This document shows positions 14,799-36,374 of a DNA stretch of 37,318 nucleotides, in pieces (position 1 is the first letter of the stretch; each line of letters starts with the position of its first letter). Source of the stretch: a virus. Taxonomy: Duplodnaviria; Heunggongvirae; Uroviricota; Caudoviricetes. The notes under the pieces are model-generated. The model made no database searches and was not told the origin of the DNA. It saw only the letters and a list, made by a program, of their open reading frames with translations. A program made the translations under genes and the position numbers. The stretch covers positions 1 through 37,318 of the IMG/VR virus record IMGVR_UViG_3300031853_000004. One strand, given 5' to 3'.

Positions 14799-15939
14799 TT
14801 TTAATAAAACCTTTCCCCACCTTACTGATTCCAAACTTCTTAATCAATTGCATTACAGTCATATCAGGATTATCTACAGCCATAAAACCAAAAGCCTTAA
14901 ACTTATCATCCTTAATTTTTAATGCAAACTCCTTGCGGGAACCGCATGAAGGATAAACATTACGAACATAATTGACATATATCTCAAGTTCATATAGAAA
15001 TTTAGTTACTTGCCAATCATAATACTTAAACTGAACCTTCAGACGTGGATAAGAAAGAAGAGCCATAATCTTTTCTTCATCATTAAGAATAATAGCTTCT
15101 ACAACATCATCCTTGGAGACAGAATCCTTGGTAAGTGAATGATGAAGCATTAAATATTCAGGATTCTTTACTTTAATTCGATGATAGTCAGAATCACAAA
15201 CTACAAATCCTTCATGCTCACATACTCCATTATTTAAATGTTTAGCTTCCTCTATAACTTTTTCCAGATTTGGATCAGCAATATTATAAATATGCGGCTT
15301 TTCAATTCCAATGAAGTTATTAAATTCTACTCCTGTAAGATTAGAACGAGTTCCAAGATGATAAAGATGAGTCTTATCATATTCAACTACTACACGAGTC
15401 TCAGGAGAAACTAATTCAAAAATATAAGTATTATATTTATCAAGAATATCATAATTAATGCTACCAAAATTATCAGCAGATTCAATCACATCCTGAAAAG
15501 TGCGGCCGATCAGAGGAGTATTTGCATCACAAGCATCAATGCATCCATTAGTAGCCCAATGCCATTGACCATTGTAACGATACAGCTTCAGGATCGATCC
15601 ATCTATTTTAGCCTGAACCTGTGCAGTGTTCCAATTAATGTCATCTGCATAAGACTCGCCCCAGTTTCCAAATTTTCTAAAAGGCCAGCACACTACGCGC
15701 CAATCTGAAATCTTGGACACATCCTCCGCACCCATGTCCATAATTATACCGCGAGCTTCCTGCACAACAGGATTAGAAAAGTCCGCACCAATAGTATAGT
15801 TAAAAATAATACGATTATCTTTAGTCTTACACTTAATATCAATCTTTTCCATTAACTCTTTAACCTCTTGGACAGAAACCTCTCCCTCAAGATGTTTAAG
15901 AATATATGAAATAATCTTTGAATTAAAATTAATAGGCAT
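14785..15939 (-). CDS. T4 Rnl1-like RNA ligase
   Basis: CWPFRKFGNWGE, KIDGS (motif I), FELVSP, EGFVV and IKVKNPEY motifs; likely start MPINF after AAGGAG. Confidence 0.85.
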   Translation of the reverse strand: MPINFNSKIISYILKHLEGEVSVQEVKELMEKIDIKCKTKDNRIIFNYTIGADFSNPVVQEARGIIMDMGAEDVSKISDWRVVCWPFRKFGNWGESYADDINWNTAQVQAKIDGSILKLYRYNGQWHWATNGCIDACDANTPLIGRTFQDVIESADNFGSINYDILDKYNTYIFELVSPETRVVVEYDKTHLYHLGTRSNLTGVEFNNFIGIEKPHIYNIADPNLEKVIEEAKHLNNGVCEHEGFVVCDSDYHRIKVKNPEYLMLHHSLTKDSVSKDDVVEAIILNDEEKIMALLSYPRLKVQFKYYDWQVTKFLYELEIYVNYVRNVYPSCGSRKEFALKIKDDKFKAFGFMAVDNPDMTVMQLIKKFGISKVGKGFIKNEQI

Positions 15940-15949
15940 AAAAACTCCT

Positions 15950-16957
15950 TTAATGCGCTTGACGGTCAGCTTCTCCAAGCAATTCTAAACAATACAAATC
16001 ATAATTATTAAATAATTTCTTTTCACGTTTAGCGCACTTACCATCAGGATACTGGCGCCAAGTAAAACTAACCCGCATATGAAAATTAACATAAGTTGCC
16101 ATTTTTACAAAAACTTCTTCAGTAATATACGTTTCTATATCGTAAGAAGATAAAAAAGGAAATTCTGAAAGAATTAAATAGGCTCCAGCATTCTCATGCC
16201 CATAATAATGAGCAGTTTCAGTAGGACGTCCTTTTCTATCATGATAATCTTTAGTGATCAATTTGCCAATATCATGATATTTAGCAGCTTCAAATAAAGG
16301 CTTACATCCCCAAAAATCGTTTTCTGGTACAGAAGGATTATAATGCTTAACAACATATTTGTAAGTATTTTGCATATGCTGCCCAAGAGTCATGGTATGA
16401 AATGGATTATCTTGATTAAAAGAATCAAGTATATCAAAATTAACAGATGCATATTCTTTTTTAATCCAAAAACTTCCTGCTTTTATTGTGCAATAAGCTT
16501 CTTTATTAGGATAAAAATAATAAATCCCATCAAATCCTTCTTTTTCAAGAGGAATCTGAAAACTTCTTACCATGTTATCAATTACTTTTTCAGGCACACA
16601 ACCAAACTCATCACGACGAGAATTCTGCTCTTTACAAAGCTTAATAGGAACTATAATCACATCAGCTTCATAAAAAACATTAGGAAACTTAGCACGTAGT
16701 TCAGTAAGTAAATTCATACGAAACTTTCTTTGAATATTAGTTGCGTTAAATACAACATTTTTTCCAAGAGAAAGAGAATCTATAATCATATCGTGAGCAA
16801 TTTGAAAAACATCTTCTTTAGTACCTTGCTTATATCCATTATCCTTGCGGATTTGGTCAGTAGAAACTATTACATGATTTTTAAAGCTATCATCATGCTC
16901 TATAAAATAATCTTTGCCACTTCCAGGCAAACCAATCATCATTACGAATTCTTGCAT
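15950..16957 (-). CDS. Polynucleotide-kinase-like P-loop (AAA_33) fused to HD phosphohydrolase
   Basis: GLPGSGKD, STDQIR and NATN in the N-terminal half; HTMTLGQH, YHDIGK and GHEN in the HD domain. Confidence 0.88.
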   Translation of the reverse strand: MQEFVMMIGLPGSGKDYFIEHDDSFKNHVIVSTDQIRKDNGYKQGTKEDVFQIAHDMIIDSLSLGKNVVFNATNIQRKFRMNLLTELRAKFPNVFYEADVIIVPIKLCKEQNSRRDEFGCVPEKVIDNMVRSFQIPLEKEGFDGIYYFYPNKEAYCTIKAGSFWIKKEYASVNFDILDSFNQDNPFHTMTLGQHMQNTYKYVVKHYNPSVPENDFWGCKPLFEAAKYHDIGKLITKDYHDRKGRPTETAHYYGHENAGAYLILSEFPFLSSYDIETYITEEVFVKMATYVNFHMRVSFTWRQYPDGKCAKREKKLFNNYDLYCLELLGEADRQAH

Positions 16958-17053
16958 ATTTTCTCCCTTCAATCTATATATATTATACCATATATAGAAG
17001 AAGTTGTCAATAAAAAAATACCTAAAACCTCAAAAAGATTTTAGGTATTTTAC

Positions 17054-17491
17054 TTATTTTTCTTTATTCATTTCAGCAATCTTGCGGCGAGTCTTAATTG
17101 TAGAAGTAACTGTATCTTTAAAATATTTTTCTGCAAAAAAATATACATCTTTACTATGACTTGCTTCTCTTTTAGCAACTTTTACTTGCCGGAGTAGTTT
17201 CTGCATGACAGGATCATCTTTGCTAATGCCAGATTTTAACAGAACATTATATGCATGTTCAACACCAATTGCTCTTTGCTCCATTAACTTGGCTCTATGT
17301 TTTAGTGCTTGAAAATCACATTTACACTCCGCGAAAATAAATCCATCAAGGTCATTTTCAACATCGAGATCCTCATCCGCACAGGTAACTTTGCCGTGAA
17401 ATGTGCCATATTTTGTTTGCTTCGTGACATACGTATCTCTTCCATCTCTTTTGGTATTAAGGATTTTACCTTTCATTATTCTCCTATCCAT
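17054..17491 (-). CDS. Hypothetical protein
   Basis: Track ORF, 145 aa. Confidence 0.7.
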   Translation of the reverse strand: MDRRIMKGKILNTKRDGRDTYVTKQTKYGTFHGKVTCADEDLDVENDLDGFIFAECKCDFQALKHRAKLMEQRAIGVEHAYNVLLKSGISKDDPVMQKLLRQVKVAKREASHSKDVYFFAEKYFKDTVTSTIKTRRKIAEMNKEK

Positions 17492-18237
17492 TCTTCTATA
17501 TCAATTGGAATTTGATAAACCATTGTATACTTATCATTCAAAACTCTTGTATCATGAAAATGACCAAAGAAATATTGTTTAAAATATGGATTTGTTTCAA
17601 ATAAATCAGACATTGAGTCAAGCCATTGTTCTGTTCTATGGTCTACTGTAGATTGATCAATTGAAGATAAAAATAAATCAGAATATAGTGGCTCAAGCTT
17701 TTGCGGAGCAGTGTGCGCTACAACGAAATCAATTGGACTACAATCTAGATTCCAATCAGCTACATAGTCATACAAATCATACATAGACTTCTTATCAAGC
17801 TGTTCATTAATATTATATGGGTATCCATTACGGAGTCTGTAATATTTGTCTACGCTATAGGCACCAGGCAGAAAAAGAAAATAATATCCGTTAATTTCAT
17901 AAATTCCACCTTTATCATTCACATAAAGAATGTTTGGATATTTATTTTGAAAAACTATATTATCTGCAATAGACCTTGACCATCCACTGTCATTGTATTT
18001 TATATGGTCCCAATAACAATTATCATGATTACCACGCATCACAATCCATCTACCAGGGAACTTCTTCGCAGCCTTCTTTGCAGCACCCATAATATGATCA
18101 CCATATTCAAACCCAGCATCCCCAGCTATAATAATAATATCATTCTTTGAAGGTTTATCAATCTTTTTAATAACTTGTTCAATAGCATAAGCGCTACCAT
18201 GAATATCTGCGCAAATAAAAATTCTTCCATTAGCCAT
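17476..18237 (-). CDS. Calcineurin-like metallophosphoesterase
   Basis: ADIHG, AGDAG, RGNHD, AHTAP and FGHFH motifs. Confidence 0.9.
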   Translation of the reverse strand: MANGRIFICADIHGSAYAIEQVIKKIDKPSKNDIIIIAGDAGFEYGDHIMGAAKKAAKKFPGRWIVMRGNHDNCYWDHIKYNDSGWSRSIADNIVFQNKYPNILYVNDKGGIYEINGYYFLFLPGAYSVDKYYRLRNGYPYNINEQLDKKSMYDLYDYVADWNLDCSPIDFVVAHTAPQKLEPLYSDLFLSSIDQSTVDHRTEQWLDSMSDLFETNPYFKQYFFGHFHDTRVLNDKYTMVYQIPIDIEEWIGE

Positions 18238-19030
18238 TTTTAAGTTCCTTCCTCAGAGAACGAGTCATTATTTGCGTTAAAACATCATCCAATAGAGCAG
18301 AAGTTTCTTCATCATCTTCATTCTTAAATTCAACACTGTCAACAATTGAATCAATCTTCTTATAATATTCTAAAGCTAAACTGCGGGCTTTCTTTTCTGA
18401 ATATCCTCCGCAATTCTTCTTTAAACTAATAACATAGTCTCTATCTTCATCAACTCGAATACAATCTTTATACGGTTTACCTTCAATATACTTTGATAAA
18501 AATAAATAAACTCTTACCAAATGAGACAACTGTTTAGGATCTATACCATATTTCATTAACTTCTCATAATTTGTTGAAGTGATATGGTCAAGATTATGAA
18601 ATACATTATTAGCCCTACCACGCATACATTGCACAGTTCTGTATTCATTTAATCTAGCAATCTTTTCTCTGTTCTCTTGGAGGATGTTCCATAAATCTTG
18701 ATATTCAGAATTTACAATAAAATAATTTGTAAACAAAATCTGTATAAAATTAATATCTTGTTTGCGGAAAATTTTAAAATAATTTCTAATATCTTTACAC
18801 TCAATATGTTCTAATTTATCGCCAATCTCATATACTTTATTATAAGGTTTAGTATTAAAAATCAAATCTTGTAATGTTGGAATTACTAAAATTTTAGTAT
18901 CAACATCAGAATCCTCATCTGCAAGATTATAATTTTGTGATCCATACAGAGCTAATACAAAATAATCTTTATCATTTACTGCTTTATAATATGCATGATG
19001 TTCATATACTCTATCTAAAATCTTCATCAA
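18230..19030 (-). CDS. Pol-beta-superfamily nucleotidyltransferase (RlaP / T4 NrdC.11-like)
   Basis: YGSQNYNL...DSDVD signature; K.LSHLVRV helix. Confidence 0.8.
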   Translation of the reverse strand: MMKILDRVYEHHAYYKAVNDKDYFVLALYGSQNYNLADEDSDVDTKILVIPTLQDLIFNTKPYNKVYEIGDKLEHIECKDIRNYFKIFRKQDINFIQILFTNYFIVNSEYQDLWNILQENREKIARLNEYRTVQCMRGRANNVFHNLDHITSTNYEKLMKYGIDPKQLSHLVRVYLFLSKYIEGKPYKDCIRVDEDRDYVISLKKNCGGYSEKKARSLALEYYKKIDSIVDSVEFKNEDDEETSALLDDVLTQIMTRSLRKELKNG

Positions 19031-19217
19031 AATCGTTCTCCATGTTTTGAATATCAGTTTTTTGTTTGCGGAGCTTCTTTCGTTGTTTACTGATTTGCTT
19101 TTTATGTTGGCTATGCTCTGATCTTTCTTCTATTGGAATTCTAAAACGCTTTTGACTAACTTCTTCTTCAAAATCATAATCATCTTCATCAAGAAGATCA
19201 ATTAGGTTTTTTGCCAT
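19011..19217 (-). CDS. Hypothetical charged protein
   Basis: Track ORF, 68 aa. Confidence 0.6.
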   Translation of the reverse strand: MAKNLIDLLDEDDYDFEEEVSQKRFRIPIEERSEHSQHKKQISKQRKKLRKQKTDIQNMENDFDEDFR

Positions 19218-19535
19218 TCTTTATTTCTCTCCTATAAAATAAAATAAAATTACAAAATGGTTAATTTTTTTACTCACGCACAAAACACATTAACCACCAA
19301 AAATGCGGTCTATTTTTTTAAGTGATTGTTATACGGCGTTATACTTCTTCTAACTCTATTAATTAGCAATCACGAGTAATTAAATAGACAAAAACTGCCA
19401 CGCACCCCCAATAAGTAAAATCCCACTAAACTACAATAGAATCGTCTAGCTTTGAGAGAGATCATCCTCTGTTGAGGGAAGTCTTAAGACTATAGCTTCT
19501 GCATACCCCCGACCTATTTTTAAATAATAAAATTA

Positions 19536-19730
19536 TTATTTAACAAAATCAAAGAGATACCAATTTTTACAGCTTGAACAAGCCATAGCATTAGTACCTT
19601 CAATGCGGATCATAGGTTCGCCGCATTTTGTACATTTAAAAATTTTAAGTTTAGGAGCCTTATCTTTTCGAGGCTTTTTAATTAGGTGTTTAGCATTCAA
19701 TGCTTTTTCAAGTTGATTACCGAGTAACAA
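19536..19730 (-). CDS. Small zinc-ribbon protein
   Basis: CTKC...CSSC. Confidence 0.65.
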   Translation of the reverse strand: MLLGNQLEKALNAKHLIKKPRKDKAPKLKIFKCTKCGEPMIRIEGTNAMACSSCKNWYLFDFVK

Positions 19731-19779
19731 ACCTATCTCCTTTTCTAATATTATAACATATATTTTTTAAGTTGTCAAA

Positions 19780-19950
19780 TTAAATTTTAGGAACTCTTTT
19801 ATCAATTTCATTCTCAAAAACTTTAGTAAGACGTAAATTATATCCTTCTTCTTTTAAAAATAGCTCCTTAATGAGTCCATCTACTCTTCCTAACATTTCA
19901 GCTGCATTAGGAGCTTCAATTTCACAAATTCATAGACCAGGTACTTTCAT
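19780..19950 (-). CDS. Hypothetical protein, 56 aa, TGA at codon 7
   Basis: MKVPGL*ICEIEAPNAAEMLGRVDGLIKELF...; fills the gap between the deaminase and the next promoter. Confidence 0.45.
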
Positions 19951-19953
19951 AAA

Positions 19954-20400
19954 CTAATCCATCCTTTCATAAATATAAGAATCATTTCCAGTATAATAGA
20001 AATGACGAATACCCTTATCCCTCAAAGCTCTTTCACATGCAGGACAAGCTCTTGACAGACCTCTTGAAGTAATACGCCCATTTGAAATTCTGAAAGTATA
20101 AACATGTACGTCCTTCCAGTCAATCTGCTGAGCTACGGGATAGGGGATAGAATTAAGCGCTGCTATCTCTGCATGAGAAGCATGAACCGCAGGCTTTCCA
20201 TCCTGTCTAGAAAACTTACGATAACGCTTATTATAATATTTTTGAGTTGGGCATGTCTTACTACTATTACTACCTTGTCCAATAATATGATGCTTGTAAG
20301 TGATAACACATCCTACATGGAAATGCGGAAAATTAGAACCTTCCGCAACTTCCTTAGCCTTGGTGAACATCCGCAAATCAAAATTAGTAAAGTTAGCCAT
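19954..20400 (-). CDS. Zinc-dependent deaminase (cytidine/dCMP/TadA superfamily)
   Basis: HVGCVI, HAEIAAL and ACPAC zinc-binding motifs. Confidence 0.85.
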   Translation of the reverse strand: MANFTNFDLRMFTKAKEVAEGSNFPHFHVGCVITYKHHIIGQGSNSSKTCPTQKYYNKRYRKFSRQDGKPAVHASHAEIAALNSIPYPVAQQIDWKDVHVYTFRISNGRITSRGLSRACPACERALRDKGIRHFYYTGNDSYIYERMD

Positions 20401-20653
20401 TTATAAAACCTCACTAACAATCTACGATAGTATAAAAACTATCGCCATAAATTTCTGCGGCGCCACCTCCATTATCTTGTAACATTTCTTTTACTTTTTC
20501 AGCAATGATATGATTTTCTCCCCTCATACCAATCTTAATAGTGCTACCATTCAAGCAATACAAATAAACAGAATACAATCGCATAATTAAACCTTTCTCT
20601 TTCTTACGATATATATATTATATCATAAATTTTAAAGGTTGTCAAGAAAAAAA

Positions 20654-20923
20654 TTATTGTTCTGGTAAAATAAAAATATCATTCAATAAAATATTATCAA
20701 TAACAACTGCGGTAAAATATTTGTGATAGCTATGTCTATTAATATAATCTCTAATTTTATTCTCTACAGCTCTATTAATCCATAAATCATCAAATCTATA
20801 ATTCTTAACAGAATTTTCCAGCTTACGTCTAGAATATGTATCTGTATCTGTAACTTTTACATCGTCTATTGCAATGTTTTGTCCGTTTTCATTAAACCAA
20901 TGAACTTCTACATATACCGCCAT
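20654..20923 (-). CDS. Hypothetical protein
   Basis: Track ORF; AAGGAG RBS. Confidence 0.65.
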   Translation of the reverse strand: MAVYVEVHWFNENGQNIAIDDVKVTDTDTYSRRKLENSVKNYRFDDLWINRAVENKIRDYINRHSYHKYFTAVVIDNILLNDIFILPEQ

Positions 20924-21095
20924 TTTTAATTATCTCCTTTTACATTATTTTTAAACCTTCCACAGGCAGGAGTTGAATTATAAATAACTAAAATATGATC
21001 CTGCCCTTCTTTACTAAATTTAATTGGAATACTTTTATCACATGTGCCATATTCATCATTTAGCTCTCTAAAGAAAACACAGTCTCCACAGCACA

Positions 21096-21659
21096 TTATC
21101 TCCACCTTCTTGAATATTCATACTCAACAACAGTTGCTGCGCATGCTACATTCAAAGACCGCACACTTCCAAACATTTGAATGTATACCATTTTATCACA
21201 TAGCTCTATTTCTCTCTTGGAAAGTCCATTACTTTCTTCACCAAATAAAAAAGCAGACTTTTTAGGAAAATCCTCATCTAAAATATTGATAGGATTATAT
21301 TCCATAATATTATCTACAGCATAAACTGTATATCCAAGAGAATGGAGATAATCAACAACCTCTTCCAAATCATCACAGTGATAAACATTCTCATAATGAT
21401 TTGTCCCCGCGCAACCTCTAGTATCTAACCTGCGGCGACCTACTACGTAGACTTCTCTACCAAGGAAAGCATTATTACTACGAATCACACTACCTATATT
21501 AATATTATAGTCAACATGTTGAAGAATCATAACAACATCTGTGCGGCGAGGTTGCAAATCAGCCCGCACTTCTTCGGCTAATTGTCCTTTGTAATAATTA
21601 ATTACATTTTCCTTACCAGAGACAATTTTATTTTGACCATAACTATACTTGGTAATCAT
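21096..21659 (-). CDS. SpoU/TrmH-family RNA 2'-O-methyltransferase
   Basis: NIGSVIRS, FGEESNGLS and SLNVACAA SPOUT motifs. Confidence 0.9.
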   Translation of the reverse strand: MITKYSYGQNKIVSGKENVINYYKGQLAEEVRADLQPRRTDVVMILQHVDYNINIGSVIRSNNAFLGREVYVVGRRRLDTRGCAGTNHYENVYHCDDLEEVVDYLHSLGYTVYAVDNIMEYNPINILDEDFPKKSAFLFGEESNGLSKREIELCDKMVYIQMFGSVRSLNVACAATVVEYEYSRRWR

Positions 21660-26058: not shown

Positions 26059-26196
26059 TAAGAGGAAATAATTAGAATAGTGTAAAATACGCGCTCTACC
26101 CTTGAGCTACAAAAACGTACTGTGCTTTTGGCAAGATTCGAACTTGCAATAACGTGTCTCCTAGACATGAAGTAACTATTCTATCCATCACTCTTA
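26059..26196 (-). ncRNA. Y-RNA-like hairpin RNA 1 carrying a circularly permuted tRNA-like domain (YrlA-like topology)
   Basis: End-paired scaffold encloses, in order, T arm GCAAG-TTCGAAT-CTTGC, acceptor 3' strand CAAAAGC, short loop, acceptor 5' strand GTTTTTG and D arm GCTC-AAGGGTA-GAGC. Confidence 0.75.
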
Positions 26197-26448: not shown

Positions 26449-26544
26449 TGGCAGCCCCGTCCTGTACCGCCCAGGAATAGACGAGTTTGGACCTCGCCAC
26501 ATGGTTTTGAAGACCATCTCGGTTCTTAACCGATAAGCGGGGCT
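26449..26544 (-). tRNA. Opal-decoding tRNA, anticodon UCA, long variable arm (suppressor / Sec-like)
   Basis: Acceptor AGCCCCG/CGGGGCT + G + CCA; D stem TCGGTT/AACCGA; anticodon arm ATGGT-CTTCAAA-ACCAT (anticodon 26508-26510); variable arm GGCGAG/CTCGTC; T arm TCCTG-GGCGGTA-CAGGA. Confidence 0.88.
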
Positions 26545-26546
26545 AG

Positions 26547-27290
26547 TTATATTTTCATCCATTCTTCAAAAGAATATTTTTCAATATCCCTCCTTAATTT
26601 AGGTAATTTATAAGCTACACACCATTTTTTAATAGTCGTATCTGAAACATTAAAACGCTTACCTAATTCAACAAAAGAATTATTATAAACCATTTCTTTA
26701 AAACTTTCTCGGTCAGGTCTTTCCACAGTTCTTTGAAGAAAAGAAACACACTCAGGACAATGAACACTTGTTAATTTAATTTCTTTTCCACATCTTTTAC
26801 AATAATTTTTCTTTTTTGGTTTTTGATTATGTTTTTTATTCTTACTTCCAAAAGTATCTAACTGTCTATCACAATTAGGACATACCCATCTTAAATTTTC
26901 TAATCTATTATCGTTATGAACACCATTTATGTGATCTAAAGTTAAAGTTAATTCTTTATTATTTCAAAAAGGTTCCTGTCCACAAATAGAACATTTATAA
27001 TTATTCTTTGTAGTAAAATCATCTTTAAAATGTTTTCTAATATAACCCGATGAAGCGTTTGAATCTTTGCAGAATGAATTTTCAAAAGTTCTTTCTTCTT
27101 TATTTGAAGGTATTATTGTGAAATGACTATAATCTATATCGTAATTATCTAACCTTGTTTTTATAACTTTTGAAACATTCCCTGTTAAAGATTGATAACC
27201 TAAATTTTTCGCTAATTGTATAAAATTTGTAGACTTTTTAACTCAATCTTCTAATTCTTCTTTTGAAAAATTATCAACTCTTGCTACCAT
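26547..27290 (-). CDS. HNH homing endonuclease with zinc fingers and C-terminal HTH, 247 aa (needs TGA=Trp)
   Basis: Absent from track. CSICGQEPF*NNKELTLTLDHINGVHNDNRLENLRWVCPNCD; TGA at 27243 and 26964. Confidence 0.9.
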
Positions 27291-27479
27291 TTTTATCTTC
27301 CAATCTCTTCCAAATAAACAACAATAATATTAAATAAGTAAGAAGCGTTGGAAGATTCGCTTTCAGCAAGTTAGCTATTTCTTGCCTATCTTACTTATTT
27401 ATAAATAAAAATTTTAGATGACTTTAGCCGCGTATGCGTTGATGACATGAACCGCGTAGAGGTATCATCCTGTCATGTC

Positions 27480-27552: not shown

Positions 27553-27582
27553 TTTTATTTATTCTTTAAAAAGAGACTATTA

Positions 27583-28218
27583 AAAAGTTTCTTGCGACCT
27601 TCGCCGTACTCTTTTATTGTGTGTTAATTTTCAGTCACGTAGGAGATAAAAGTGAGCCATACGGAGCGACCGCATAACTTTTTACCCCAGTCTAAAGCTA
27701 TAAAATACACAGGTGTATTTTATATTCTCCATTGAAGGATAACTTTATTACCAAATCTACGCCAGGATTGATTACAAACTGGAACTTTCACCCATCATTC
27801 ACAAAATAATATCATATCTTCAAATGATCTTCCGTATGCCATTTTACCGCAGGCTTCGCGTTTTTTCATTCCAGCTTTGGGCTACTTGTACATTGACCTC
27901 GTCTTATTGATATATTACTATATCTTAACTGGAAACTCTCTTATTGGTATTTCCAACGTTCCTGCTTTGGGCACCACCCCGCACAGACGTTTGGATTCAA
28001 ATCCCGCTGGGACGCCTATTATGAGAGCGACGAGACACTACCTTTTAATCGCACAATAATCGAGCGCTACCTACATTTCGTTGAAATCATTTAATTTCTT
28101 CTTACTATTGGATTACTCCAACAATAAAAGCCAACCATCTAAAGTATCCCATAGATTTCGACTTACTGAGTAGATACGCATGACCGCATGATATTGCGAA
28201 TACACATGCTTCAAAAAC
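27583..28218 (-). ncRNA. Large structured ncRNA of about 630 nt, ROOL-like
   Basis: No long minus-strand ORF, higher GC and many hairpins. 5' TTGAAG..CAATATCATGCGGT..GTAAGTCG, central AAGTAGCCCAAAG and 3' GGTCGCTCC..GGCTCA..GAGTACGGCGAAGGT resemble ROOL as I recall it. Size and tRNA-cluster location fit. Needs a covariance-model search. Confidence 0.62.
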
Positions 28219-28250
28219 TTTTTAATATTCTCTTTTCAAAGAATATTTAA

Positions 28251-28329
28251 GATAAGAGAAATACTAAAGAAAGAAAAATCCTACACCGTAACCTATGAAT
28301 TGAAGTATCTTTCTTTCAATCATCTTATC
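28251..28329 (-). ncRNA. Y-RNA-like hairpin RNA 2 (minimal)
   Basis: GATAAGA-TGATTG-AAAGAAAGA-TACTTCA ... TTCTTTCTTT-AGTA-TTTC-TCTTATC. Confidence 0.7.
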
Positions 28330-28369: not shown

Positions 28370-28498
28370 TTTAGAAAGGAAATACTAGAAATAGTACAAT
28401 ACGCTTCTGCTCGTGAAGTGAAGGAAGTGAGCTTTAATTTAAATATTTTTTAAATACTTTTATCATTTGAAGTAACTATTTCTCAATCACTTTCTAAA
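28370..28498 (-). ncRNA. Y-RNA-like hairpin RNA 3
   Basis: TTTAGAAAG-TGATTG-AGAAATAGT-TACTTCA ... ACTATTTCT-AGTA-TTTC-CTTTCTAAA; starts just downstream of a consensus promoter. Confidence 0.75.
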
Positions 28499-29032: not shown

Positions 29033-29110
29033 ATAAACTCCTTTCATTTCCTTATATTATATAAAAAATAAATATATTAAATTATATTATTTTGCCCTAA
29101 AAATTTTATA

Positions 29111-29217
29111 ATGCGGAAATATTTAAAATAGTTGTTACTGTTAGAATCGAACTAACTTTATTTGATTAAGAGTCAAAGGCTTTCCATAAGCGAAGTAACT
29201 ATTTTACCATCACGCAT
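29111..29217 (-). ncRNA. Y-RNA-like hairpin RNA 4 carrying a tRNA-Lys(CUU)-like cloverleaf
   Basis: ATGCG-TGATGG-TAAAATAGT-TACTTC, D-like GCTT-ATGGA-AAGC, anticodon arm TTTGA-CTCTTAA-TCAAA, T arm GTTAG-TTCGATT-CTAAC, then AGTAACA-ACTATTTTA-AATA-TTTC-CGCAT. Confidence 0.78.
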
Positions 29218-29234
29218 TATTTTCGTTTAATAAT

Positions 29235-29335
29235 GAAAAGGAAACAATAAAGATAGTATATTTTACGAATAGCAGGTTTTGGCGCTATTTTCTTTTAAAA
29301 TAATCCTTGAAATAACTATCTTTCCATCACTTTTC
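29235..29335 (-). ncRNA. Y-RNA-like hairpin RNA 5
   Basis: GAAAAG-TGATGG-AAAGATAGT-TATTTCA ... ACTATCTTT-ATTG-TTTC-CTTTTC. Confidence 0.72.
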
Positions 29336-29518: not shown

Positions 29519-30536
29519 AAGAGTTGGTACCGCTTTTTTGGCAAGCGGTCAGCCATTTAAGTTAGAACATTGGAACCACCTTCTTTAATAGAAAACTTTA
29601 AGTTTATCGTATAACTTAAAAGCGCAATGGAACCATCTCCTTTCTCAAGAATAGTTCTAACATAATTAATAAAACGTCCCTAGCAGAGCAAGTTACTAAG
29701 GCTCTGACACCGCATTTTCGGGTATGCGGTGACCATCCGACCTCTTGCGGAGTCACTATGATAGATTAGTTTAAACAGATACGCCACGTGAAGGCTCTAT
29801 CATGTATCCATAACGCAGTAATTTCACCACGCGTAGCTACTATTACCACTCGCACAACTGTTTGTATGCCTACTACCCAGCTGTCCCTTTAATAAAGGTT
29901 AGTGCTAACTAGACTATTTTAACCAATTAAACTACCATGCCAGGCGCGGCACAGGTTGGATTTGAACCAACAGCTTTCCAGTTTATAGTTGATATTTTTA
30001 CCTTTTAAACTATTACTTCGCACAATCGAAGTAAACGGCTTTCGATACCGTATCTCCAACTTTTAATTCCCTTTTGTGGCCTGTGGGATAACAGACTTCG
30101 ACGACCTCTAGACCACGATTTATTTTAAAGTCTGCACGGTATTTGAGGCACTCCGCAGACTACTAATGAAACCGACCTACATCTTAATTTCTATAGCGCG
30201 TAGATACTCCGCGTTCATTCACATCGCTTCCCATCCGCGCATATTGTTTTGTAACGATTCATATTTAATGTCTACATCGTTACAAGCAGACAAAAATTTT
30301 GGCTTTGCAACACTTTTTAGAGGTCCAGCTTCCACTAATTCTATCCTCTAGAGCTTCCGCAAGTGATCAATCTCGCTATTCTGGAACATCCTTTGGCTTT
30401 CACTCTGCCAACCAGATGGGTGTTTGCGCTCTGAAAAGTTTTCGGCCGATTCTTTCCAGTTGCTCTTGCCAATTAAAGCAAAGAGAGATTTTTATCGTCA
30501 GCTATCTAATAAGTAGTAAGGCAATTTTCAACTCTT
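29519..30536 (-). ncRNA. About 1,018-nt end-paired structured ncRNA (GOLLD-like or novel) with embedded tRNA-like parts
   Basis: Starts about 20 nt after a consensus promoter. 5' AAGAGTTG pairs perfectly with 3' CAACTCTT. No credible minus-strand ORF; many hairpins. Confidence 0.55.
29945..30022 (-). pseudogene. Degenerate tRNA-like element inside the 1-kb RNA
   Basis: D-like AGTTTAAAAGGTAAAA and intact T arm GTTGG-TTCAAAT-CCAAC; anticodon and acceptor stems poorly paired. Confidence 0.45.
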
Positions 30537-30911: not shown

Positions 30912-31014
30912 CTTTATTAATATTATATCATAATTTTTTCTGGTATGCAAGAATTTTTTTCTTTTTACAAAGAAAATTTTTATTAAGTGTTTTACCTTTT
31001 AAACTAACCGCCCG

Positions 31015-31050
31015 CGGAGGACAGTACCGGAGTCGAACCAATATCTCCTA
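31015..31050 (-). other. Isolated tRNA 3'-half-like fragment (T arm plus acceptor strand)
   Basis: ATTGG-TTCGACT-CCGGT-ACTGTCCTCC directly after a promoter, with no D or anticodon arm. Confidence 0.4.
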
Positions 31051-31119
31051 ACCTTTATTAATATTATATCATTAATTTTTATGGAAGTCAAGTATTTTTT
31101 TCCAAGAGAAAAGAAAAAT

Positions 31120-31923: not shown

Positions 31924-32718
31924 TTAAATCCTCTCCTTTTTATACTCTATATTTTTACTTTTTAAATCACGAGCAATTTCAACAAACTGCTCACATTTAT
32001 TGCAAGATGATCCGCGCGCACACCGATATCCGCAATTCATTTTTGATTCAATAAAGTTAGGAATTAAACTTTCATTTGGAATATCTATTTCCAAATCTTT
32101 GTATATATATTTTAAATTTTCACGCCATTCTTGTCTTTCAAACCAGATTCTATATAAAGTACCAATCTTCACCCAAGAATTAACATTAAATTCTCCAACG
32201 TCAATATATTTAGATAACTCTTCTATACATTCTGGTATAAAAATTGGGGCTTTTGGATTAATGCCTTTATCAAATCTTTTACTTGGAATCTCATTTAAAA
32301 TTAATCTAGTTTGAACATTATTCTTTTCACATATATTTTTTACATACTCTAAATTATAACACAAATCATCGCATACATAAATATCTGTAGTTCCTAAAAT
32401 TATTTGTTCTTCCAATAGAGAAAGAGAAGAAGGTGCGGAGCTTGCGTTAAAGAAAAACTTTAAGCCTCTTTTTTTCATTTCTTCTACAACTTTATAGGAT
32501 AAATCAATTTTAAAATAAATAAAAGGATTAATGTTGTCTATAGCTTCCATTTGTTGATAATTCATATTATCTGGTTGAATATTAAACCTAATATCTTTAT
32601 ATTTTGAAACAAAATCAAATAACTTATCAAAATTATTGCGAAGTTCATTAAATGTAATGTTATATTCATTACCATATCTATTTTTAACATCCGTTGATCA
32701 AGGAATTGCTACTTTCAT
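31924..32718 (-). CDS. Hypothetical protein, 264 aa, TGA at codon 7, C-terminal Cys cluster
   Basis: Track ORF 31924..32565 extends in frame through TGA (32698-32700) to ATG 32718 with an AAAGGAGG RBS; KMNCGYRC...CNKC. Confidence 0.7.
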
Positions 32719-34570
32719 AATCCCTCCTTTCATTATACCGATAGTAAGAAAGATTGTCTATTTCATTTAAAACATGCATTACTTCTTTGTTTAGCATAAA
32801 TCCATTTTTAGTATTGAGCCAATAAAAATAAGAATTCTTATCTCCGACTGTATTAAAAATTTTAATATTTCTAGTAACTGAAACAAAGTCTCTATACGGA
32901 ACTTTATTTATATTTAAAATATCCGCTTTTATTAAAGCATTTGGTACAGTTTTTATTATATAATGATCGCCGCAAAAGAAACCTTCTTTACTCAATGTAT
33001 GTTTTATATGTTTTTCATTAAACATTTTTCTTATAAAATCTTGTCTTTTTTCATATGAATCAAAAGATTTTGAAGTATTAGAAAGTATTAAATTATGTGA
33101 ATTAGCTAAACAATTATTTATTTTTTCATAACAATCTTCATTCTTTGCAAATATTAAAAAAGATGAATCTATTTTAGATAAAAATTTAGTTCTGCTTATA
33201 ATACGATTTTGCCCCGGAAAGACCAAAGCATCGTCTTTACATTCTTCAGAACATAAATGATATTTATTATCATTACTATAATTAATAACTCCGCAAATTG
33301 GACATTTCCTTCCAAACGAGCAGTCTTCACAAATTTTCTCTGAACCTAAATAAGGCTCTTCATAATCATAGTCATAATCATCTGTTTCAATGCGTTGTCC
33401 GCAACATATACAAGTATTCTTACCGCTCAAATTTATCCTCAAACCTTTTGTTACATTACGACAACACCAATATTTAAAAGATGTATCTTCAATCATGTCA
33501 TTATACATACCATTAGTATAAATTACAATCTTCTTACTCTTGTAATGATAATTTGGGGAACAATAATCTTTTAAAAAAGAATTATTATGAAAATTTTTAA
33601 TATCTTTATATTGTTGATTTTTAAACCTATACGTCCATCCAAACGATTTTTCAACAACCTCCCGCATAAAATCTAAAGCTGCTAAAGAGATTTCTTCTTT
33701 ATAGTATGGATATGACTTACCAGTTAAAATCATTTGTTTGTGACAATAGATCAAACTCCGCCAACTTTTATTTGGCATTATTAGCTTATTATCTTCATCT
33801 AAAGTAATGCTAAAATTTTTCTTAGCTTCAAGATATGCTACTACTGCGACATTGCTATTCATCATTTCAATTGTTCCAGCACTATGACATCCTGGATTGA
33901 TCCATGACATACAAGAAGTCCAATTACATTGATTATCACTCATAGTCATAAAATCAATTGGATTAATGCTTAAAACCAAAGTAGCTTCATTAATATTGTT
34001 AGAATTAGCGGTATTAATATCATTACGCCATTCGTTAAATAATTTAACATTGTCATAACTTAAAGCTTTTATACATTTTTGAATAGTTCTGATAGTCTTA
34101 GCACCTTTTCTAACAGAAAAACTATAATGTTCAAGTTTAAAATTATAGTCAATATATCCATCAATAATATACATTGGATTAAACATATTTAAAATATATA
34201 TTTTTTCTTCATTACTTATATTAGGATAATCAATAATATAAAGGAAAAAATCTTCATAAAAATCTTTTTCCATTTTTTTATTCTTGATAGCTCTTTTGTA
34301 AAAATCTAAGTCATAATCAGTCGTTAAATAATTGTATTCATATATAGATTGAAGTTGTCTAGCTATATATCCGCTATCTTTTTTTAATTTAATTTTCTTT
34401 TTAATTCTTAACTGATTTCCAAAAGCATGATATAATCTACGTTTAGCATAATTCCACTCTCTTAGAACAATATCAAGTGGCCCGCATTTACAATTATTAA
34501 AAAGATAAATATATTTGCGGATATTGTATCTATCTTGCTTTGTAAGACTATCAAGAGGTTGATTTTTCAA
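32684..34570 (-). CDS. Large phage hypothetical protein with zinc-finger-like Cys pairs
   Basis: 628 aa; LSINPIDFMTMS..WTSC motif and three CxxC pairs. Confidence 0.8.
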   Translation of the reverse strand: MKNQPLDSLTKQDRYNIRKYIYLFNNCKCGPLDIVLREWNYAKRRLYHAFGNQLRIKKKIKLKKDSGYIARQLQSIYEYNYLTTDYDLDFYKRAIKNKKMEKDFYEDFFLYIIDYPNISNEEKIYILNMFNPMYIIDGYIDYNFKLEHYSFSVRKGAKTIRTIQKCIKALSYDNVKLFNEWRNDINTANSNNINEATLVLSINPIDFMTMSDNQCNWTSCMSWINPGCHSAGTIEMMNSNVAVVAYLEAKKNFSITLDEDNKLIMPNKSWRSLIYCHKQMILTGKSYPYYKEEISLAALDFMREVVEKSFGWTYRFKNQQYKDIKNFHNNSFLKDYCSPNYHYKSKKIVIYTNGMYNDMIEDTSFKYWCCRNVTKGLRINLSGKNTCICCGQRIETDDYDYDYEEPYLGSEKICEDCSFGRKCPICGVINYSNDNKYHLCSEECKDDALVFPGQNRIISRTKFLSKIDSSFLIFAKNEDCYEKINNCLANSHNLILSNTSKSFDSYEKRQDFIRKMFNEKHIKHTLSKEGFFCGDHYIIKTVPNALIKADILNINKVPYRDFVSVTRNIKIFNTVGDKNSYFYWLNTKNGFMLNKEVMHVLNEIDNLSYYRYNERRDYESSNSLINGC

Positions 34571-34922: not shown

Positions 34923-36374
34923 TTAACCGAAGCTAATGTTATTTATAAGATTGACAATGTTCTCTTTTCCATTTACTAAATCAATATATTTAAATATTGA
35001 ATCATTTAAAGAAGTTAAGAACATAAAATTATCAGATGGAGGTTCGATCTGACCATCATAATTTGCTAAATCAAAACTGTATGTCATGATATTGCCATAT
35101 CTTTTATTCCAATTATAAATTGAATCAGTTCTAGATCCGGCATAATAGCTATTATAATTAGTCCAAAAAATTTGCATATCACTTATAACAAAAATTCTAT
35201 CATAAGTATCTTTCATTATTTCAATTGCAGATTGTATGTTAGTACCCCATCCACAATTACTATTACTACACATAGCATCAATGATACTAAAAGGATTATT
35301 TAATCTAGAAAAATTATTAAATCTTTTAGCGTCGGTACCAAATTTAATAAAATCTATATTTGAACCATTTAAGAATAACGCAGTCGCGAAACAAGCTCCA
35401 ATTTCTTTTAAAGTTATATTACTATTTGAACTAATATAATTTTCCATAGAACCAGATACATCAAGTACAATAGCATTAATACCATCAAATTTAGGGATAT
35501 TATAAGTTGCAATTCCAAAAGCTCTTCCAAGAGCCTCCTCAATTAAAAGATTATTAATCTTTAAATTTTTATGTGCAGTATAAATTCGATATGGAAAAAC
35601 TAATGATTTACGAATTTTATTTTCATTAATAAGTTGAGGATAAAGATATTCCCCAATCCATTCATTGTCAATATTTGGATTATCAAGAATATTATTTAAA
35701 TTGCGGAGAAGCGCCATGTATCCAAGTTTACCTTCTTCAACCATTTCCTTCCAGGTTGCTTGACGTGATTCCTTAGACTGTTTCTTTGCAACACTAACCT
35801 CCCAAGTATCTGGAGCTTTAAGAAGGTTATTCTTAAAATCATTAATAACTTTTGAATTTGCATGTGTAAGATTAATTAAATCATACATATTATACGTATG
35901 ACCAATCATTTTATATTTAGTAATTTCATACTGTCCAAGAGAAGAAAGATAATTAGCAGAACCTTTAATTAAAGCATGAGATCTCTTTCCATCAAGATAT
36001 TTAACAGCACCAAAGATTTCTGAAACATCATCAGGACGCCGCATAAAACTACGATAAAATTCTCTTTTCTCTTGGAAAGATTTATCATTAAGCCATGCGG
36101 CGATTAGTTGTGAGACAGACCGCATTCCAAGTTCATTACGAGCAAAAATTGCGGCTTTGCCTACAAATGCATAATCATATTGGTCAGCAACAGCTTCTGT
36201 CAGATTTAAAAGTCTATCAATTTGATCTGAAGACTTTTCGTAATATTGATTTTCTAAGAAAGATGAAAAAAGCATATTAAACCAAGCTTCTACAGTATTT
36301 CTTTTATAAAGGATAGTTCCTTCATATGATTGCACTCGTTCTTGAACTTTCTTTTCATTAAACTTTGCCATCAC
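34923..36374 (-). CDS. rsr: Ro60 / TROVE-vWA RNA-binding protein (Rsr-like)
   Basis: TROVE features (FLENQYYE, AIFARNELGMRS, RRPDD, ITKY, LTH, PDTWE, GYMALLRNL, PYR) followed by a vWA MIDAS LDVSGSM, T and FVISDMQ. Confidence 0.9.
   Translation of the reverse strand: MMAKFNEKKVQERVQSYEGTILYKRNTVEAWFNMLFSSFLENQYYEKSSDQIDRLLNLTEAVADQYDYAFVGKAAIFARNELGMRSVSQLIAAWLNDKSFQEKREFYRSFMRRPDDVSEIFGAVKYLDGKRSHALIKGSANYLSSLGQYEITKYKMIGHTYNMYDLINLTHANSKVINDFKNNLLKAPDTWEVSVAKKQSKESRQATWKEMVEEGKLGYMALLRNLNNILDNPNIDNEWIGEYLYPQLINENKIRKSLVFPYRIYTAHKNLKINNLLIEEALGRAFGIATYNIPKFDGINAIVLDVSGSMENYISSNSNITLKEIGACFATALFLNGSNIDFIKFGTDAKRFNNFSRLNNPFSIIDAMCSNSNCGWGTNIQSAIEIMKDTYDRIFVISDMQIFWTNYNSYYAGSRTDSIYNWNKRYGNIMTYSFDLANYDGQIEPPSDNFMFLTSLNDSIFKYIDLVNGKENIVNLINNISFG

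What the first reader, a model, noticed from the sequence alone, without database searches (positions are those of the whole stretch)
29111..29217. Non-chargeable tRNA-Lys(CUU) cloverleaf grafted onto the Y-like stem
Seen: D-like arm, a perfect 5-bp anticodon arm with loop CU-CUU-AA (anticodon at 29168-29170) and a perfect T arm. The acceptor stem (GTTACT/AGTAAC) runs straight into the conserved scaffold, leaving no free CCA end. This is the opposite topology to RNA 1 and to YrlA, which lack an anticodon. Established: tRNA-Lys is the target of anticodon nucleases such as PrrC and PARIS AriB. Inference: an anticodon-displaying decoy, held by Ro60 and re-ligatable by the phage ligases.
Basis: partly seen in the sequence, partly recalled or inferred. 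Interest (0 to 1): 0.85.

Follow-up and report, generated by a model that had tools for sequence, protein, structure and literature searches.

The report
tRNA-Lys mimic on phage Y-like RNA
A 143-kb phage that encodes the RNA-binding ring protein Ro60 makes a small rod-shaped RNA whose tip is a complete tRNA-lysine shape without free ends; related phages mount other tRNA pieces on the same rod, so it is probably a tRNA look-alike used in phage-host conflict, not an ordinary tRNA gene.

Summary
On the minus strand at 29131-29200 lies a good tRNA-Lys(CUU) cloverleaf (Rfam 51.7 bits; ARAGORN). It is enclosed by a rod scaffold spanning 29220-29108.

The scaffold is a real RNA family:
- It has invariant 5' G-UGAYNG...UACUUC and 3' RUUUC-C, with covarying outer and inner helices.
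- It occurs 5 times in the window and as 34 distinct copies in 9 of 12 related phage records, all of which encode Ro60.
- In two phages it lies directly upstream of the Ro60 gene.

Cargo is modular: YrlA-like permuted tRNA mimics, T arms, hairpins, whole cloverleaves (Lys here; Val/UAG and Thr(UGU) in relatives) and a Lys(CUU) anticodon arm without a T arm.

Two metagenomic orthologues of this RNA keep the anticodon arm identical and the T stem by a compensatory change. The top of the acceptor stem and the discriminator are not kept. No scaffold-borne tRNA encodes CCA.

I read it as a Y-RNA-like, probably non-chargeable tRNA-Lys mimic (0.55). The anticodon-nuclease decoy idea is plausible, since Rnl1 and a kinase are present, but untested. 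A rival reading is maturation into a working tRNA (0.25).

This scan has noted analogous handle-plus-tRNA-piece RNAs beside Ro60-like genes in other phages. I found no published description.

The parts
29108..29220 (-). RNA C: whole rod RNA with the tRNA-Lys(CUU) cargo (outer helix to outer helix)
   Evidence: Folds. Orthologues L209:1794-1910 and L173:548-665. Pair counts on alignment A2: 96.6% paired, 4 compensatory pairs.
29213..29220 (-). Outer helix, 5' strand (AUAAUGCG); pairs with 29108-29115
   Evidence: It covaries among the 34 scaffolds and among the three orthologues, GCG/CGC against AUG/CAU.
29207..29212 (-). Conserved 5' core UGAUGG (family consensus G-UGAYNG)
   Evidence: Present in all 34 distinct scaffolds; it was part of the search motif. 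Control matches 0.
29198..29206 (-). Inner helix, 5' strand (UAAAAUAGU); its last three bases are tRNA positions 1-3
   Evidence: Minimum-energy fold. Inner helix positions 0-6 pair in 34 of 34 scaffolds with 4-5 pair types each.
29192..29197 (-). UACUUC motif (search criterion); here it forms tRNA positions 4-9
   Evidence: Near-invariant in the 34 scaffolds whatever the cargo (33 UACUUC, 1 UAUUUC). It was required by the search pattern, so this is not an independent finding.
29179..29191 (-). D arm (GCUU-AUGGA-AAGC)
   Evidence: invariant pairs in the orthologues.
29161..29177 (-). Anticodon arm UUUGA-CUCUUAA-UCAAA; anticodon CUU at 29170-29168
   Evidence: Identical in the window, L209 and L173. 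The same 11-nt GACUCUUAAUC sits in the T-arm-less scaffold RNA of G002-G004.
29140..29156 (-). T arm GUUAG-UUCGAUU-CUAAC
   Evidence: Compensatory change at 52:62, A-U to G-C, in L209 and L173.
29133..29139 (-). Acceptor-like 3' strand AGUA plus a variable 3-4 nt bulge (ACA here; AUUC in L209, UAAC in L173)
29108..29132 (-). 3' half of the scaffold: inner helix ACUAUUUUA, core AAUAUUUC, outer helix CGCAUUAU
29235..29335 (-). RNA B: same scaffold with hairpin cargo, immediately upstream of C and probably co-transcribed
   Evidence: Same order in L209.
28370..28498 (-). RNA D: same scaffold, behind a consensus promoter (28531-28503)
28251..28329 (-). RNA E: same scaffold with a short cargo; its closing pair is A-U instead of G-C
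26059..26196 (-). RNA A: same scaffold with a YrlA-like permuted tRNA mimic (T arm, hairpin, D arm)
   Evidence: Rfam YrlA 37.4 bits, below the gathering score of 69, E 5.7e-7 locally. Fold.
34923..36374 (-). Ro60 (TROVE + vWA) gene, the presumed protein partner
   Evidence: Pfam TROVE 2.1e-14. PHROG 850 1.5e-23. Full-length match to Thermus phage phiLo Ro60, PDB 9KOP, E 1.4e-22. Homologues in all 12 records studied.

Best explanation
RNA C is one member of a phage family of Y-RNA-like rod RNAs. A constant handle is formed by the 5' and 3' ends. It consists of an outer helix, the core G-UGAYNG opposite RUUUC-C, an inner helix, and the motif UACUUC. This handle is most likely the docking site of the phage Ro60 (inferred from linkage only).

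Different cargo modules are inserted at its tip. In RNA C the cargo is a full tRNA body: a D arm, an authentic tRNA-Lys(CUU) anticodon arm and a T arm. Its 'acceptor' helix is the handle itself, so there is no free 5' end and no CCA 3' end.

I think it works as a non-aminoacylated tRNA-Lys look-alike that presents the Lys anticodon arm and the L-shape to a factor that recognises tRNA-Lys, while being held on Ro60. The leading candidate for that factor is a host or rival tRNA-Lys-directed anticodon nuclease, which the RNA would soak up or divert. The phage's own Rnl1, kinase and phosphoesterase set could reseal it.

Shown here: the structure, the family, the modular cargo, the linkage to Ro60, and the selective conservation of the anticodon arm and T arm but not of the acceptor top. 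Inferred: Ro60 binding, lack of charging, and the decoy action.
For: 1. Family and structure.
- 34 distinct scaffolds occur in 9 Ro60-encoding phage records.
- Outer helix positions 2-5 and inner helix positions 0-6 pair in 34 of 34, with 4-5 pair types each. G.U pairs make the structure strand-specific, that is, RNA.
- 0 of 57 control motif hits have a partner, against 44 of 97 real hits.

2. Ro60 linkage.
- Every scaffold-bearing long record has Ro60.
- The scaffolds end less than 700 nt upstream of Ro60 in G008 and G009.

3. Cargo is modular and includes known Y-RNA-type tRNA mimics.

4. Sister RNA in G002-G004.
- It has the same handle and the same GCG/CGC outer helix.
- It keeps GACUCUUAAUC in a 5-bp/7-nt hairpin but has no T arm.
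- An ordinary tRNA-Lys(CUU) with CCA lies about 270 nt downstream.

5. Orthologues L209 and L173.
- The anticodon arm is identical and the T stem is kept by a compensatory change.
- The tRNA-register pairs 1:72, 2:71 and 3:70 are AxA, GC, UA in the window; AU, GU, UA in L209; and none in L173.
- The discriminator is A in the window and C in L209, with none in L173.
- Rfam aligns L173 only over model positions 4-67, and ARAGORN does not call it.

6. CCA. It is encoded in 62 of 68 conventional tRNAs of G002-G004 but in 0 of 6 scaffold-borne ones, and not in RNA C.

7. Energy. The scaffold register is 2.8 kcal/mol better than the tRNA register.

8. Context.
- Rnl1-like (phrog_562, 5.6e-47), PNK-like kinase, metallophosphoesterase, nucleotidyltransferase and Rnl2-like genes are present.
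- T4 uses such enzymes to repair tRNA-Lys cut by PrrC (PMC10264068).
- AriB cuts Lys(UUU) and Thr(UGU) at U36AAUC|A41 (10.1101/2025.02.04.636281). RNA C carries UAAUCA, and the other scaffold-borne cloverleaves include Thr(UGU).
- A Ro60-like protein of phage Bas63 counters a defence system (PMC11482910).
Against:
- The cloverleaf is complete and scores like a working tRNA. L209 has a full 7-bp acceptor stem.
- RNA C is the window phage's only Lys(CUU) species, while 7 of its 11 relatives carry a conventional one.
- M. smegmatis YrlA is cut by RNase P and receives CCA in vivo (PMC4201824), so a Y-like RNA can be processed.
- The handle lacks the GNCGAAN0-1G motif thought to contact Ro60.
- Three Ro60-positive records (G005, G006, G010) have no detectable scaffold, and in G007 and G011 the scaffolds lie 16-18 kb away on the other strand.
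- Conservation of the T-arm-less RNA within G002-G004 (2 differences in 82 nt against about 7% genome divergence) is only weakly above neutral.
- Documented Lys-directed nucleases act on the UUU isoacceptor.
- The host is unknown.
Confidence: 0.55

Rival explanations
1. RNA C is a precursor of a working tRNA-Lys(CUU). The rod is only a leader-trailer duplex, a processing or stabilising cassette that Ro60 may chaperone. RNase P, a 3' nuclease and the CCA-adding enzyme would release a chargeable tRNA that reads AAG.
For: - The Rfam tRNA score is 51.7 bits, and 61.2 for L209.
- All tertiary-contact bases are present: U8, A14, G18G19, U33, the T-loop UUCGA and G53:C61.
- A73 is present in the window and U at -1.
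- L209 has a 7-bp acceptor stem.
- The genome has no other Lys(CUU) gene, while 7 of 11 relatives keep a conventional one.
- Half of this phage's conventional tRNAs also lack an encoded CCA.
- Val(UAC) in G002 and G004 is scaffold-borne and is the only Val tRNA of a set of 25.
Against: - The acceptor top is not conserved: L173 has none of the pairs 1:72 to 3:70 and is not called by ARAGORN.
- The discriminator varies between A and C.
- tRNA positions 1-9 are simply the family's constant handle sequence.
- The sister RNA without a T arm cannot be a tRNA, yet it keeps the Lys anticodon arm.
- The scaffold-borne 'Val' changes its anticodon to UAG in G003.
- There is a 1:72 mismatch here and in the scaffold-borne Thr.
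- AAG makes up only 22% of Lys codons.
Confidence: 0.25
2. RNA C is a Y-RNA-type partner of Ro60 in which the tRNA body serves only as a stable, nuclease-resistant fold or as a generic effector-binding domain (for example for PNPase or tRNA-modifying enzymes, as proposed for YrlA). The Lys anticodon would be a relic of the tRNA gene from which the cargo was copied.
For: - The same handle carries YrlA-like cargos without any anticodon arm.
- The roles proposed for YrlA are of this kind (PMC4201824; PMC12135203).
- The anticodon of the scaffold-borne Val RNA is not fixed among close relatives.
Against: - The anticodon arm is the most conserved part across the window, L209 and L173. Position 26, the variable loop, the D loop and the acceptor top all change.
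- It is the only tRNA part kept in the T-arm-less sister RNA.
Confidence: 0.15
3. RNA C is a decaying tRNA gene that happens to lie between repeated sequences, with no function of its own.
For: Its G+C content is low (33%), the D loop is short, and there is a 1:72 mismatch.
Against: - All arms are intact.
- A compensatory change maintains the T stem.
- Three orthologues exist in different contexts.
- The flanks match a 34-member covarying family.
Confidence: 0.03

Closest known systems
YrlA-type bacterial and phage Y RNAs bound by Rsr/Ro60 (Rfam RF02553; Chen et al. 2014, PMC4201824)
   Same: Encoded near a Ro60 orthologue. The 5' and 3' ends form a long stem with a conserved interrupted helix. 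The tip is a tRNA-like module with canonical T and D arms and no free CCA end. There are several different RNAs per genome. RNA A of this window gives a sub-threshold YrlA match (37.4 bits).
   Different: The handle sequence differs: GUGAYNG/UACUUC instead of GNCGAAN0-1G. RNA C gives no YrlA match. Its topology is reversed, with the stem at the acceptor position and a true 7-nt Lys anticodon loop displayed. One constant handle carries many alternative cargos.
Deinococcus radiodurans Yrn1 (Chen et al. 2014, PMC4201824)
   Same: It is modelled with the Y stem in the acceptor position and a 5-bp 'anticodon arm' between D-like and T-like elements. This is the same orientation as RNA C.
   Different: The Yrn1 loop has 6 nt, there is no V region, the D arm is doubtful, and no specific anticodon identity is claimed. 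RNA C is a complete cloverleaf that passes tRNA detectors.
M. smegmatis YrlA, cut by RNase P and given CCA (PMC4201824)
   Same: It shows that a Ro60-bound tRNA mimic with a 7-bp acceptor stem can be processed by tRNA enzymes while staying on Rsr. This is a possible fate for RNA C or L209.
   Different: There the acceptor stem is a closed hairpin that gets opened. Here cleavage would detach the cargo from the handle.
Phage tRNAs that defeat tRNA-targeting defences (T5 tRNAs against PARIS AriB, PMC11464382 and 10.1101/2025.02.04.636281; Retron-Eco7, PMC11555353; hypothesis of PMC10264068)
   Same: They are phage-encoded Lys and Thr(UGU) tRNA species linked to anticodon-nuclease conflict. RNA C carries the AriB-type site UAAUCA. 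The phage also carries Rnl1 and a kinase, like T4.
   Different: Those are ordinary, chargeable, nuclease-resistant replacement tRNAs. RNA C would act as a non-translating look-alike. No decoy of this kind has been published, as far as my searches show.
Phage Ro60 homologues with Y-like RNAs (Thermus phage phiLo Ro60 with Yrl1/Yrl2, PMC12135203; Bas63 gp130, PMC11482910)
   Same: The protein here matches phiLo Ro60 over its full length (E 1.4e-22). The Bas63 authors suggest that some annotated tRNA genes next to the Ro60-like gene are really Y RNAs, and that the protein counters a defence system.
   Different: The phiLo Yrl RNAs were picked by a CGAA motif and are not tRNA cloverleaves. The Bas63 suggestion was not followed up at the RNA level.

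Membership tests
Elongator tRNA-Lys gene | Cloverleaf with conserved tertiary bases that passes tRNA detectors | tested here: met
   Rfam tRNA 51.7 bits (gathering score 29) and an ARAGORN call.
Elongator tRNA-Lys gene | Lys anticodon loop (C/U32 U33 CUU A37 A38) | tested here: met
   The loop is CUCUUAA.
Elongator tRNA-Lys gene | 7-bp acceptor stem maintained by selection, with unpaired leader and trailer | tested here: not met
   The window has 6 bp plus A.A, L209 has 7 bp, and L173 has only 4 bp. Positions 1-3 pair with the trailer in all three, and positions 1-9 are the family's constant handle.
Elongator tRNA-Lys gene | Discriminator A73 and a 3' CCA (encoded or added) | tested here: inconclusive
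   The window has A73 and L209 has C73. No CCA is encoded here or in any scaffold-borne tRNA, against 62 of 68 conventional tRNAs in G002-G004. Half of the window phage's ordinary tRNAs also lack it, and post-transcriptional addition cannot be tested.
Elongator tRNA-Lys gene | Processing by RNase P and 3' nucleases, and charging by LysRS | not testable with these tools
   Read data were unavailable.
Y RNA / YrlA (RF02553) | Encoded near a Ro60 orthologue, usually on the same strand | tested here: met
   RNA C lies 5.7 kb downstream of Ro60 on the same strand. The scaffolds lie directly upstream of Ro60 in G008 and G009. All 9 scaffold-bearing records have Ro60. Chen's 4-kb criterion is met only in some genomes.
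Y RNA / YrlA (RF02553) | Terminal stem of paired 5' and 3' ends with a conserved interrupted helix | tested here: met
   Covariation over 34 copies and a conserved core.
Y RNA / YrlA (RF02553) | GNCGAAN0-1G motif near the 5' end (putative Ro60 contact) | tested here: not met
   It is absent. The constant 5' motifs are GUGAYNG and UACUUC (motif from PMC4201824).
Y RNA / YrlA (RF02553) | Score at or above the Rfam gathering threshold (69 bits) | tested here: not met
   There is no YrlA hit on RNA C even at E 10. RNA A scores 37.4 bits.
Y RNA / YrlA (RF02553) | tRNA-like module with T and D arms, a closed acceptor, and the stem in place of the anticodon arm | tested here: not met
   T and D arms are present, but the topology is reversed in RNA C. 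RNA A has the YrlA topology.
Y RNA / YrlA (RF02553) | Bound by Ro60 in vivo | not testable with these tools
   Genomic linkage only.
Anticodon-nuclease decoy (hypothetical class) | Carries the target's recognition elements but cannot serve in translation | tested here: inconclusive
   The anticodon arm is conserved and carries UAAUCA, the AriB site. Non-chargeability is inferred, not shown.
Anticodon-nuclease decoy (hypothetical class) | A cognate nuclease in the host, and protection when the RNA is present | not testable with these tools
   The host is unknown and there is no experiment.

The most novel reading that the evidence does not exclude
Phage Ro60 with its handle RNAs is a modular display system for tRNA parts. 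The phage mounts whole tRNA bodies or bare anticodon arms (Lys CUU, Thr UGU, Val/Leu) on one constant Ro60-binding handle. These would sponge, mis-trigger or sense tRNA-cleaving immune nucleases, with the Rnl1/kinase set resealing the cut decoys. Cargo swapping would then retarget the system as host defences change.
Probability: 0.2. Interest if true: 0.9.

Novelty: new variant of a known kind. Interest (0 to 1): 0.72.

Why it matters
Why bacteria and phages keep Ro60, and why its Y RNAs imitate tRNA, has been open since 2014. This family offers a natural series on one constant handle: permuted mimic, T arm alone, bare anticodon arm, and whole cloverleaf. That series makes it testable which tRNA features matter.

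If the Lys, Thr and Val modules are decoys or sensors for tRNA-targeting immunity, this would be a new RNA-based counter-defence. It would also give phage Ro60 a function.

There is a warning for annotation too. Some 'tRNA genes' in phage tRNA islands, including the only Val or Lys(CUU) 'tRNA' of a genome, may not be tRNAs.

Tried and rejected
- BLAST of the ncRNA island against GenBank phages found only HNH and tRNA-Gly fragments.
- The first Ro60 search with a single protein found nothing in viral contigs. An alignment-based search worked.
- My first scaffold pattern (UGAUKG) missed the UGAUAG and UGACAG cores, and so missed the scaffold-borne Val, Thr and anticodon-arm RNAs (against 56, 57).
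- The viral-contig scan with a strict 5' motif returned mostly chance hits: 42 loci, about 6 real.
- A loose duplex scan for variant scaffolds in G005, G006 and G010 gave only noise. Those three Ro60-positive records remain without a detected scaffold.
- RtcB and T4-type Rnl1 Pfam models found nothing. Nothing matched the Rnl1 Pfam model in any genome, controls included, so that search is uninformative. Rnl1 was found through PHROGs instead.
- The records behind L205, L209 and L173 could not be searched for Ro60.
- The 628-aa neighbour of Ro60 gave no family in Pfam, PHROGs or the protein atlas.
- I rejected a DNA-level inverted repeat or mobile-element end, because G.U pairs and one-strand motifs point to RNA.
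- I rejected chance, because of the reversed-sequence control.

Full report
**Setting.** The window is the first 37 kb of a 143.5-kb IMG/VR phage record (G000) with 32% G+C. Some genes need TGA read as a sense codon. All features below lie on the minus strand. A Ro60 gene lies at 34923-36374. It matches Pfam TROVE (2.1e-14) plus vWA and PHROG 850. It also matches the solved Ro60 of Thermus phage phiLo over its full length (9KOP, E 1.4e-22). Downstream, between 31.1 and 25.6 kb, is an island with few protein-coding genes. It holds tRNAs, a ROOL RNA (284 bits), near-consensus promoters and several structured RNAs.

**The observation.** ARAGORN and Rfam both call a tRNA-Lys(CUU) at 29131-29200 (51.7 bits).
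- The acceptor has six pairs and an A1.A72 mismatch. No CCA is encoded.
- The flanks pair. The whole RNA (29220-29108) folds into a rod made of an outer helix, a small interrupted helix, an inner helix and then the cloverleaf.
- The three top 'acceptor' bases can pair either with 70-72 (tRNA register) or with the trailer (scaffold register). The scaffold register is the predicted minimum: -24.5 against -21.7 kcal/mol.

**The scaffold is a family.** The same rod occurs at 26196-26059 (A), 28329-28251 (E), 28498-28370 (D) and 29335-29235 (B).
- Pattern scans and Ro60-based searches brought in eleven related phage records, G001-G011, with Ro60 at 41-52% identity. I fetched them whole.
- A motif-plus-pairing search finds 44 scaffold RNAs, 34 of them distinct, in 9 of the 12 records.
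- Constant parts are G-UGAYNG and UACUUC on the 5' side and RUUUC-C on the 3' side.
- Outer-helix positions 2-5 and inner-helix positions 0-6 pair in 34 of 34 copies, with up to five pair types per position, including G.U.
- Part of this pairing was required by my filter. However, in reversed control sequence 0 of 57 motif hits pass the filter, against 44 of 97 real hits. The genome search controls were also 0.
- In G008 and G009 the scaffold RNAs sit directly upstream of the Ro60 gene.
- Every scaffold-bearing long record encodes Ro60. Three Ro60-positive records (G005, G006, G010) show no scaffold.

**Cargo is modular.** The cargo classes are:
- YrlA-like permuted mimics (T arm, hairpin, D arm), such as RNA A, which gives a sub-threshold YrlA match of 37.4 bits;
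- T arms alone;
- small hairpins;
- cloverleaves in normal tRNA order.

Besides Lys(CUU) here, G002-G004 carry a scaffold-borne Val(UAC), whose anticodon reads UAG in G003, and a scaffold-borne Thr(UGU).

Most telling is a further scaffold RNA in G002-G004, near G002:37976-38051. It has the same GCG/CGC outer helix as RNA C. It keeps a small D-like hairpin and a 5-bp/7-nt hairpin with the exact 11-nt GACUCUUAAUC of tRNA-Lys(CUU). It has no T arm. It cannot be a tRNA. An ordinary tRNA-Lys(CUU) with CCA lies about 270 nt downstream.

**Orthologues of RNA C.** A metagenome scan found two.
- L209:1794-1910 is from a close relative with the same gene order.
- L173:548-665 is from a different context.

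On the three-way alignment A2:
- The anticodon arm is identical.
- The T stem is kept by a compensatory A-U to G-C change, and the outer helix by two or three further compensatory changes.
- The bases that would complete a tRNA acceptor stem are not kept. For pairs 1:72, 2:71 and 3:70 the window has AxA, GC, UA; L209 has AU, GU, UA; L173 has none. These were read from the sequences; the column counts misplace L209's 1:72 because of a gap.
- The discriminator is A in the window and C in L209. L173 has none.
- Rfam aligns L173 only over model positions 4-67, and ARAGORN does not call it.
- In the scaffold register these bases form a bulge of variable sequence, as in the other family members.
- tRNA positions 1-9 of RNA C are simply the family's constant AGU-UACUUC.
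- CCA is encoded in 62 of 68 conventional tRNAs of G002-G004, but in none of the six scaffold-borne ones and not in RNA C. In the window phage itself only 4 of 8 conventional tRNAs encode it, so this point is weaker here.

**Interpretation.** Selection acts on the handle, the tRNA body and above all the Lys anticodon arm. It does not act on the features needed for end processing and charging. This fits a Y-RNA-like, non-charged tRNA-Lys mimic.

Its functional reading, a decoy for anticodon nucleases, remains inference. The following are consistent with it:
- An Rnl1-like ligase (phrog_562, 5.6e-47), a PNK-like kinase, a metallophosphoesterase, a nucleotidyltransferase, a SpoU methylase and an Rnl2-like ligase lie in the same window. 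This recalls the T4 repair of PrrC-cut tRNA-Lys (PMC10264068).
[quoted passage not shown] RNA C has UAAUCA, whereas the phage's conventional tRNA-Lys(UUU) has UAAUUC.
- Lys and Thr(UGU) are two of the three identities found on scaffolds.
- A Ro60-like protein of phage Bas63 counters a defence system, and its authors suspected that neighbouring 'tRNA genes' are Y RNAs (PMC11482910).

Against over-reading:
- The known nucleases act on the UUU isoacceptor in E. coli.
- The host here is unknown.
- Conservation inside G002-G004 is only slightly above neutral.

**Rival.** RNA C could still be matured into a working tRNA.
- It scores as a tRNA.
- L209 has a full acceptor stem.
- The phage has no other Lys(CUU) gene, while 7 of its 11 relatives do.
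- M. smegmatis YrlA is cut by RNase P and receives CCA in vivo (PMC4201824).

I give this 0.25, a generic stabilising or effector-binding fold 0.15, and a decaying gene 0.03.

**Comparison with the known.** The closest kinds are YrlA and Yrn1 Y RNAs.
- Shared features: linkage to Ro60, a terminal stem, a tRNA-like tip, and no free CCA.
- Differences: the handle lacks GNCGAAN0-1G, RNA C gives no YrlA hit, its topology is the reverse of YrlA, and one handle carries many cargos.
- Yrn1 was modelled in the same orientation, but with a 6-nt loop and a doubtful D arm.
- My literature searches found no description of a Y-like RNA with an authentic anticodon arm or of handle-plus-cargo arrays.

This scan's own notes report analogous families with other handles beside Ro60-like genes in other phages. 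I did not test those. No look-alike of this RNA was on record.

**Verdict.** It is a new variant of a known kind, with interest 0.72.

Noticed in passing
G002:C1:37733-37854, 37976-38051, 38192-38309 (same in G003, G004): Three adjacent scaffold RNAs carry a Val(UAC) cloverleaf (anticodon UAG in G003), a bare Lys(CUU) anticodon arm and a Thr(UGU) cloverleaf with a U1.U72 mismatch. The Val one is the only Val tRNA call in a 25-tRNA set.
   Followed up: partly
window 27417-27479 (-): A weak HDV-like ribozyme match (HDV-F-prausnitzii, 23.9 bits against a gathering score of 44, E 0.3) lies immediately 3' of tRNA-Pro(UGG), which lacks an encoded CCA. If real, it would cut out the tRNA 3' end.
   Followed up: no
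window 26453-26544 (-): A long-variable-arm tRNA with anticodon UCA (Rfam tRNA-Sec 25.2 bits, below threshold). Together with in-frame TGA codons in the lysin, HNH and other genes, it points to TGA recoding. Relatives carry a similar tRNA that ARAGORN calls 'SeC(tca)'.
   Followed up: partly
window 29519-30536 (-): About 1 kb behind a consensus promoter has no ORF of at least 60 aa on the sense strand and no Rfam family above threshold. It contains tRNA-like pieces (tRNA 27.8 bits at 29947-30019; weak YrlA hit at 29892-30004).
   Followed up: no
window 30964-31058 (-): A promoter-driven small RNA has a T arm, a closed GC hairpin and a D arm (YrlA 22.7 bits, E 0.22), but I did not find the GUGAYNG handle. 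It may be a second type of Y-like RNA.
   Followed up: no
window 27575-28233 (-): A ROOL RNA (284 bits) lies directly downstream of scaffold RNAs D and E and upstream of tRNA-Pro, probably in one transcript from the promoter at 28531-28503.
   Followed up: partly
window 31924-34570 (-): Two genes of unknown function (628 aa and 269 aa, the latter with one TGA) follow Ro60. They keep that position in G001-G005 and G008. No family was found in Pfam, PHROGs or the protein atlas. They are candidate partners of the Ro60 system.
   Followed up: partly
window 14785-21659 and 6724-7659 (-): A cluster of RNA-repair and RNA-modification genes: Rnl1-like ligase, PNK-like kinase, metallophosphoesterase, nucleotidyltransferase, cytidine-deaminase-like protein and SpoU/TrmH methylase, plus a separate Rnl2-like ligase.
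   Followed up: partly
window 26547-27290 (-): An HNH endonuclease ORF with two in-frame TGA codons sits between the UCA tRNA and tRNA-Pro inside the ncRNA island.
   Followed up: no
window 28251-28329 (-): Scaffold RNA E replaces the G-C pair that closes the core in the other 34 copies with A-U. This is a covariation at a position that otherwise looks invariant.
   Followed up: no
G002:C1:43483-43611 and G004 equivalent: In a YrlA-like cargo the first hairpin is 5 bp with the loop CUGAAAA, which is a tRNA-Phe(GAA)-like anticodon loop. This could be chance: about 1 in 16 seven-base loops fit the YU...RN pattern.
   Followed up: no
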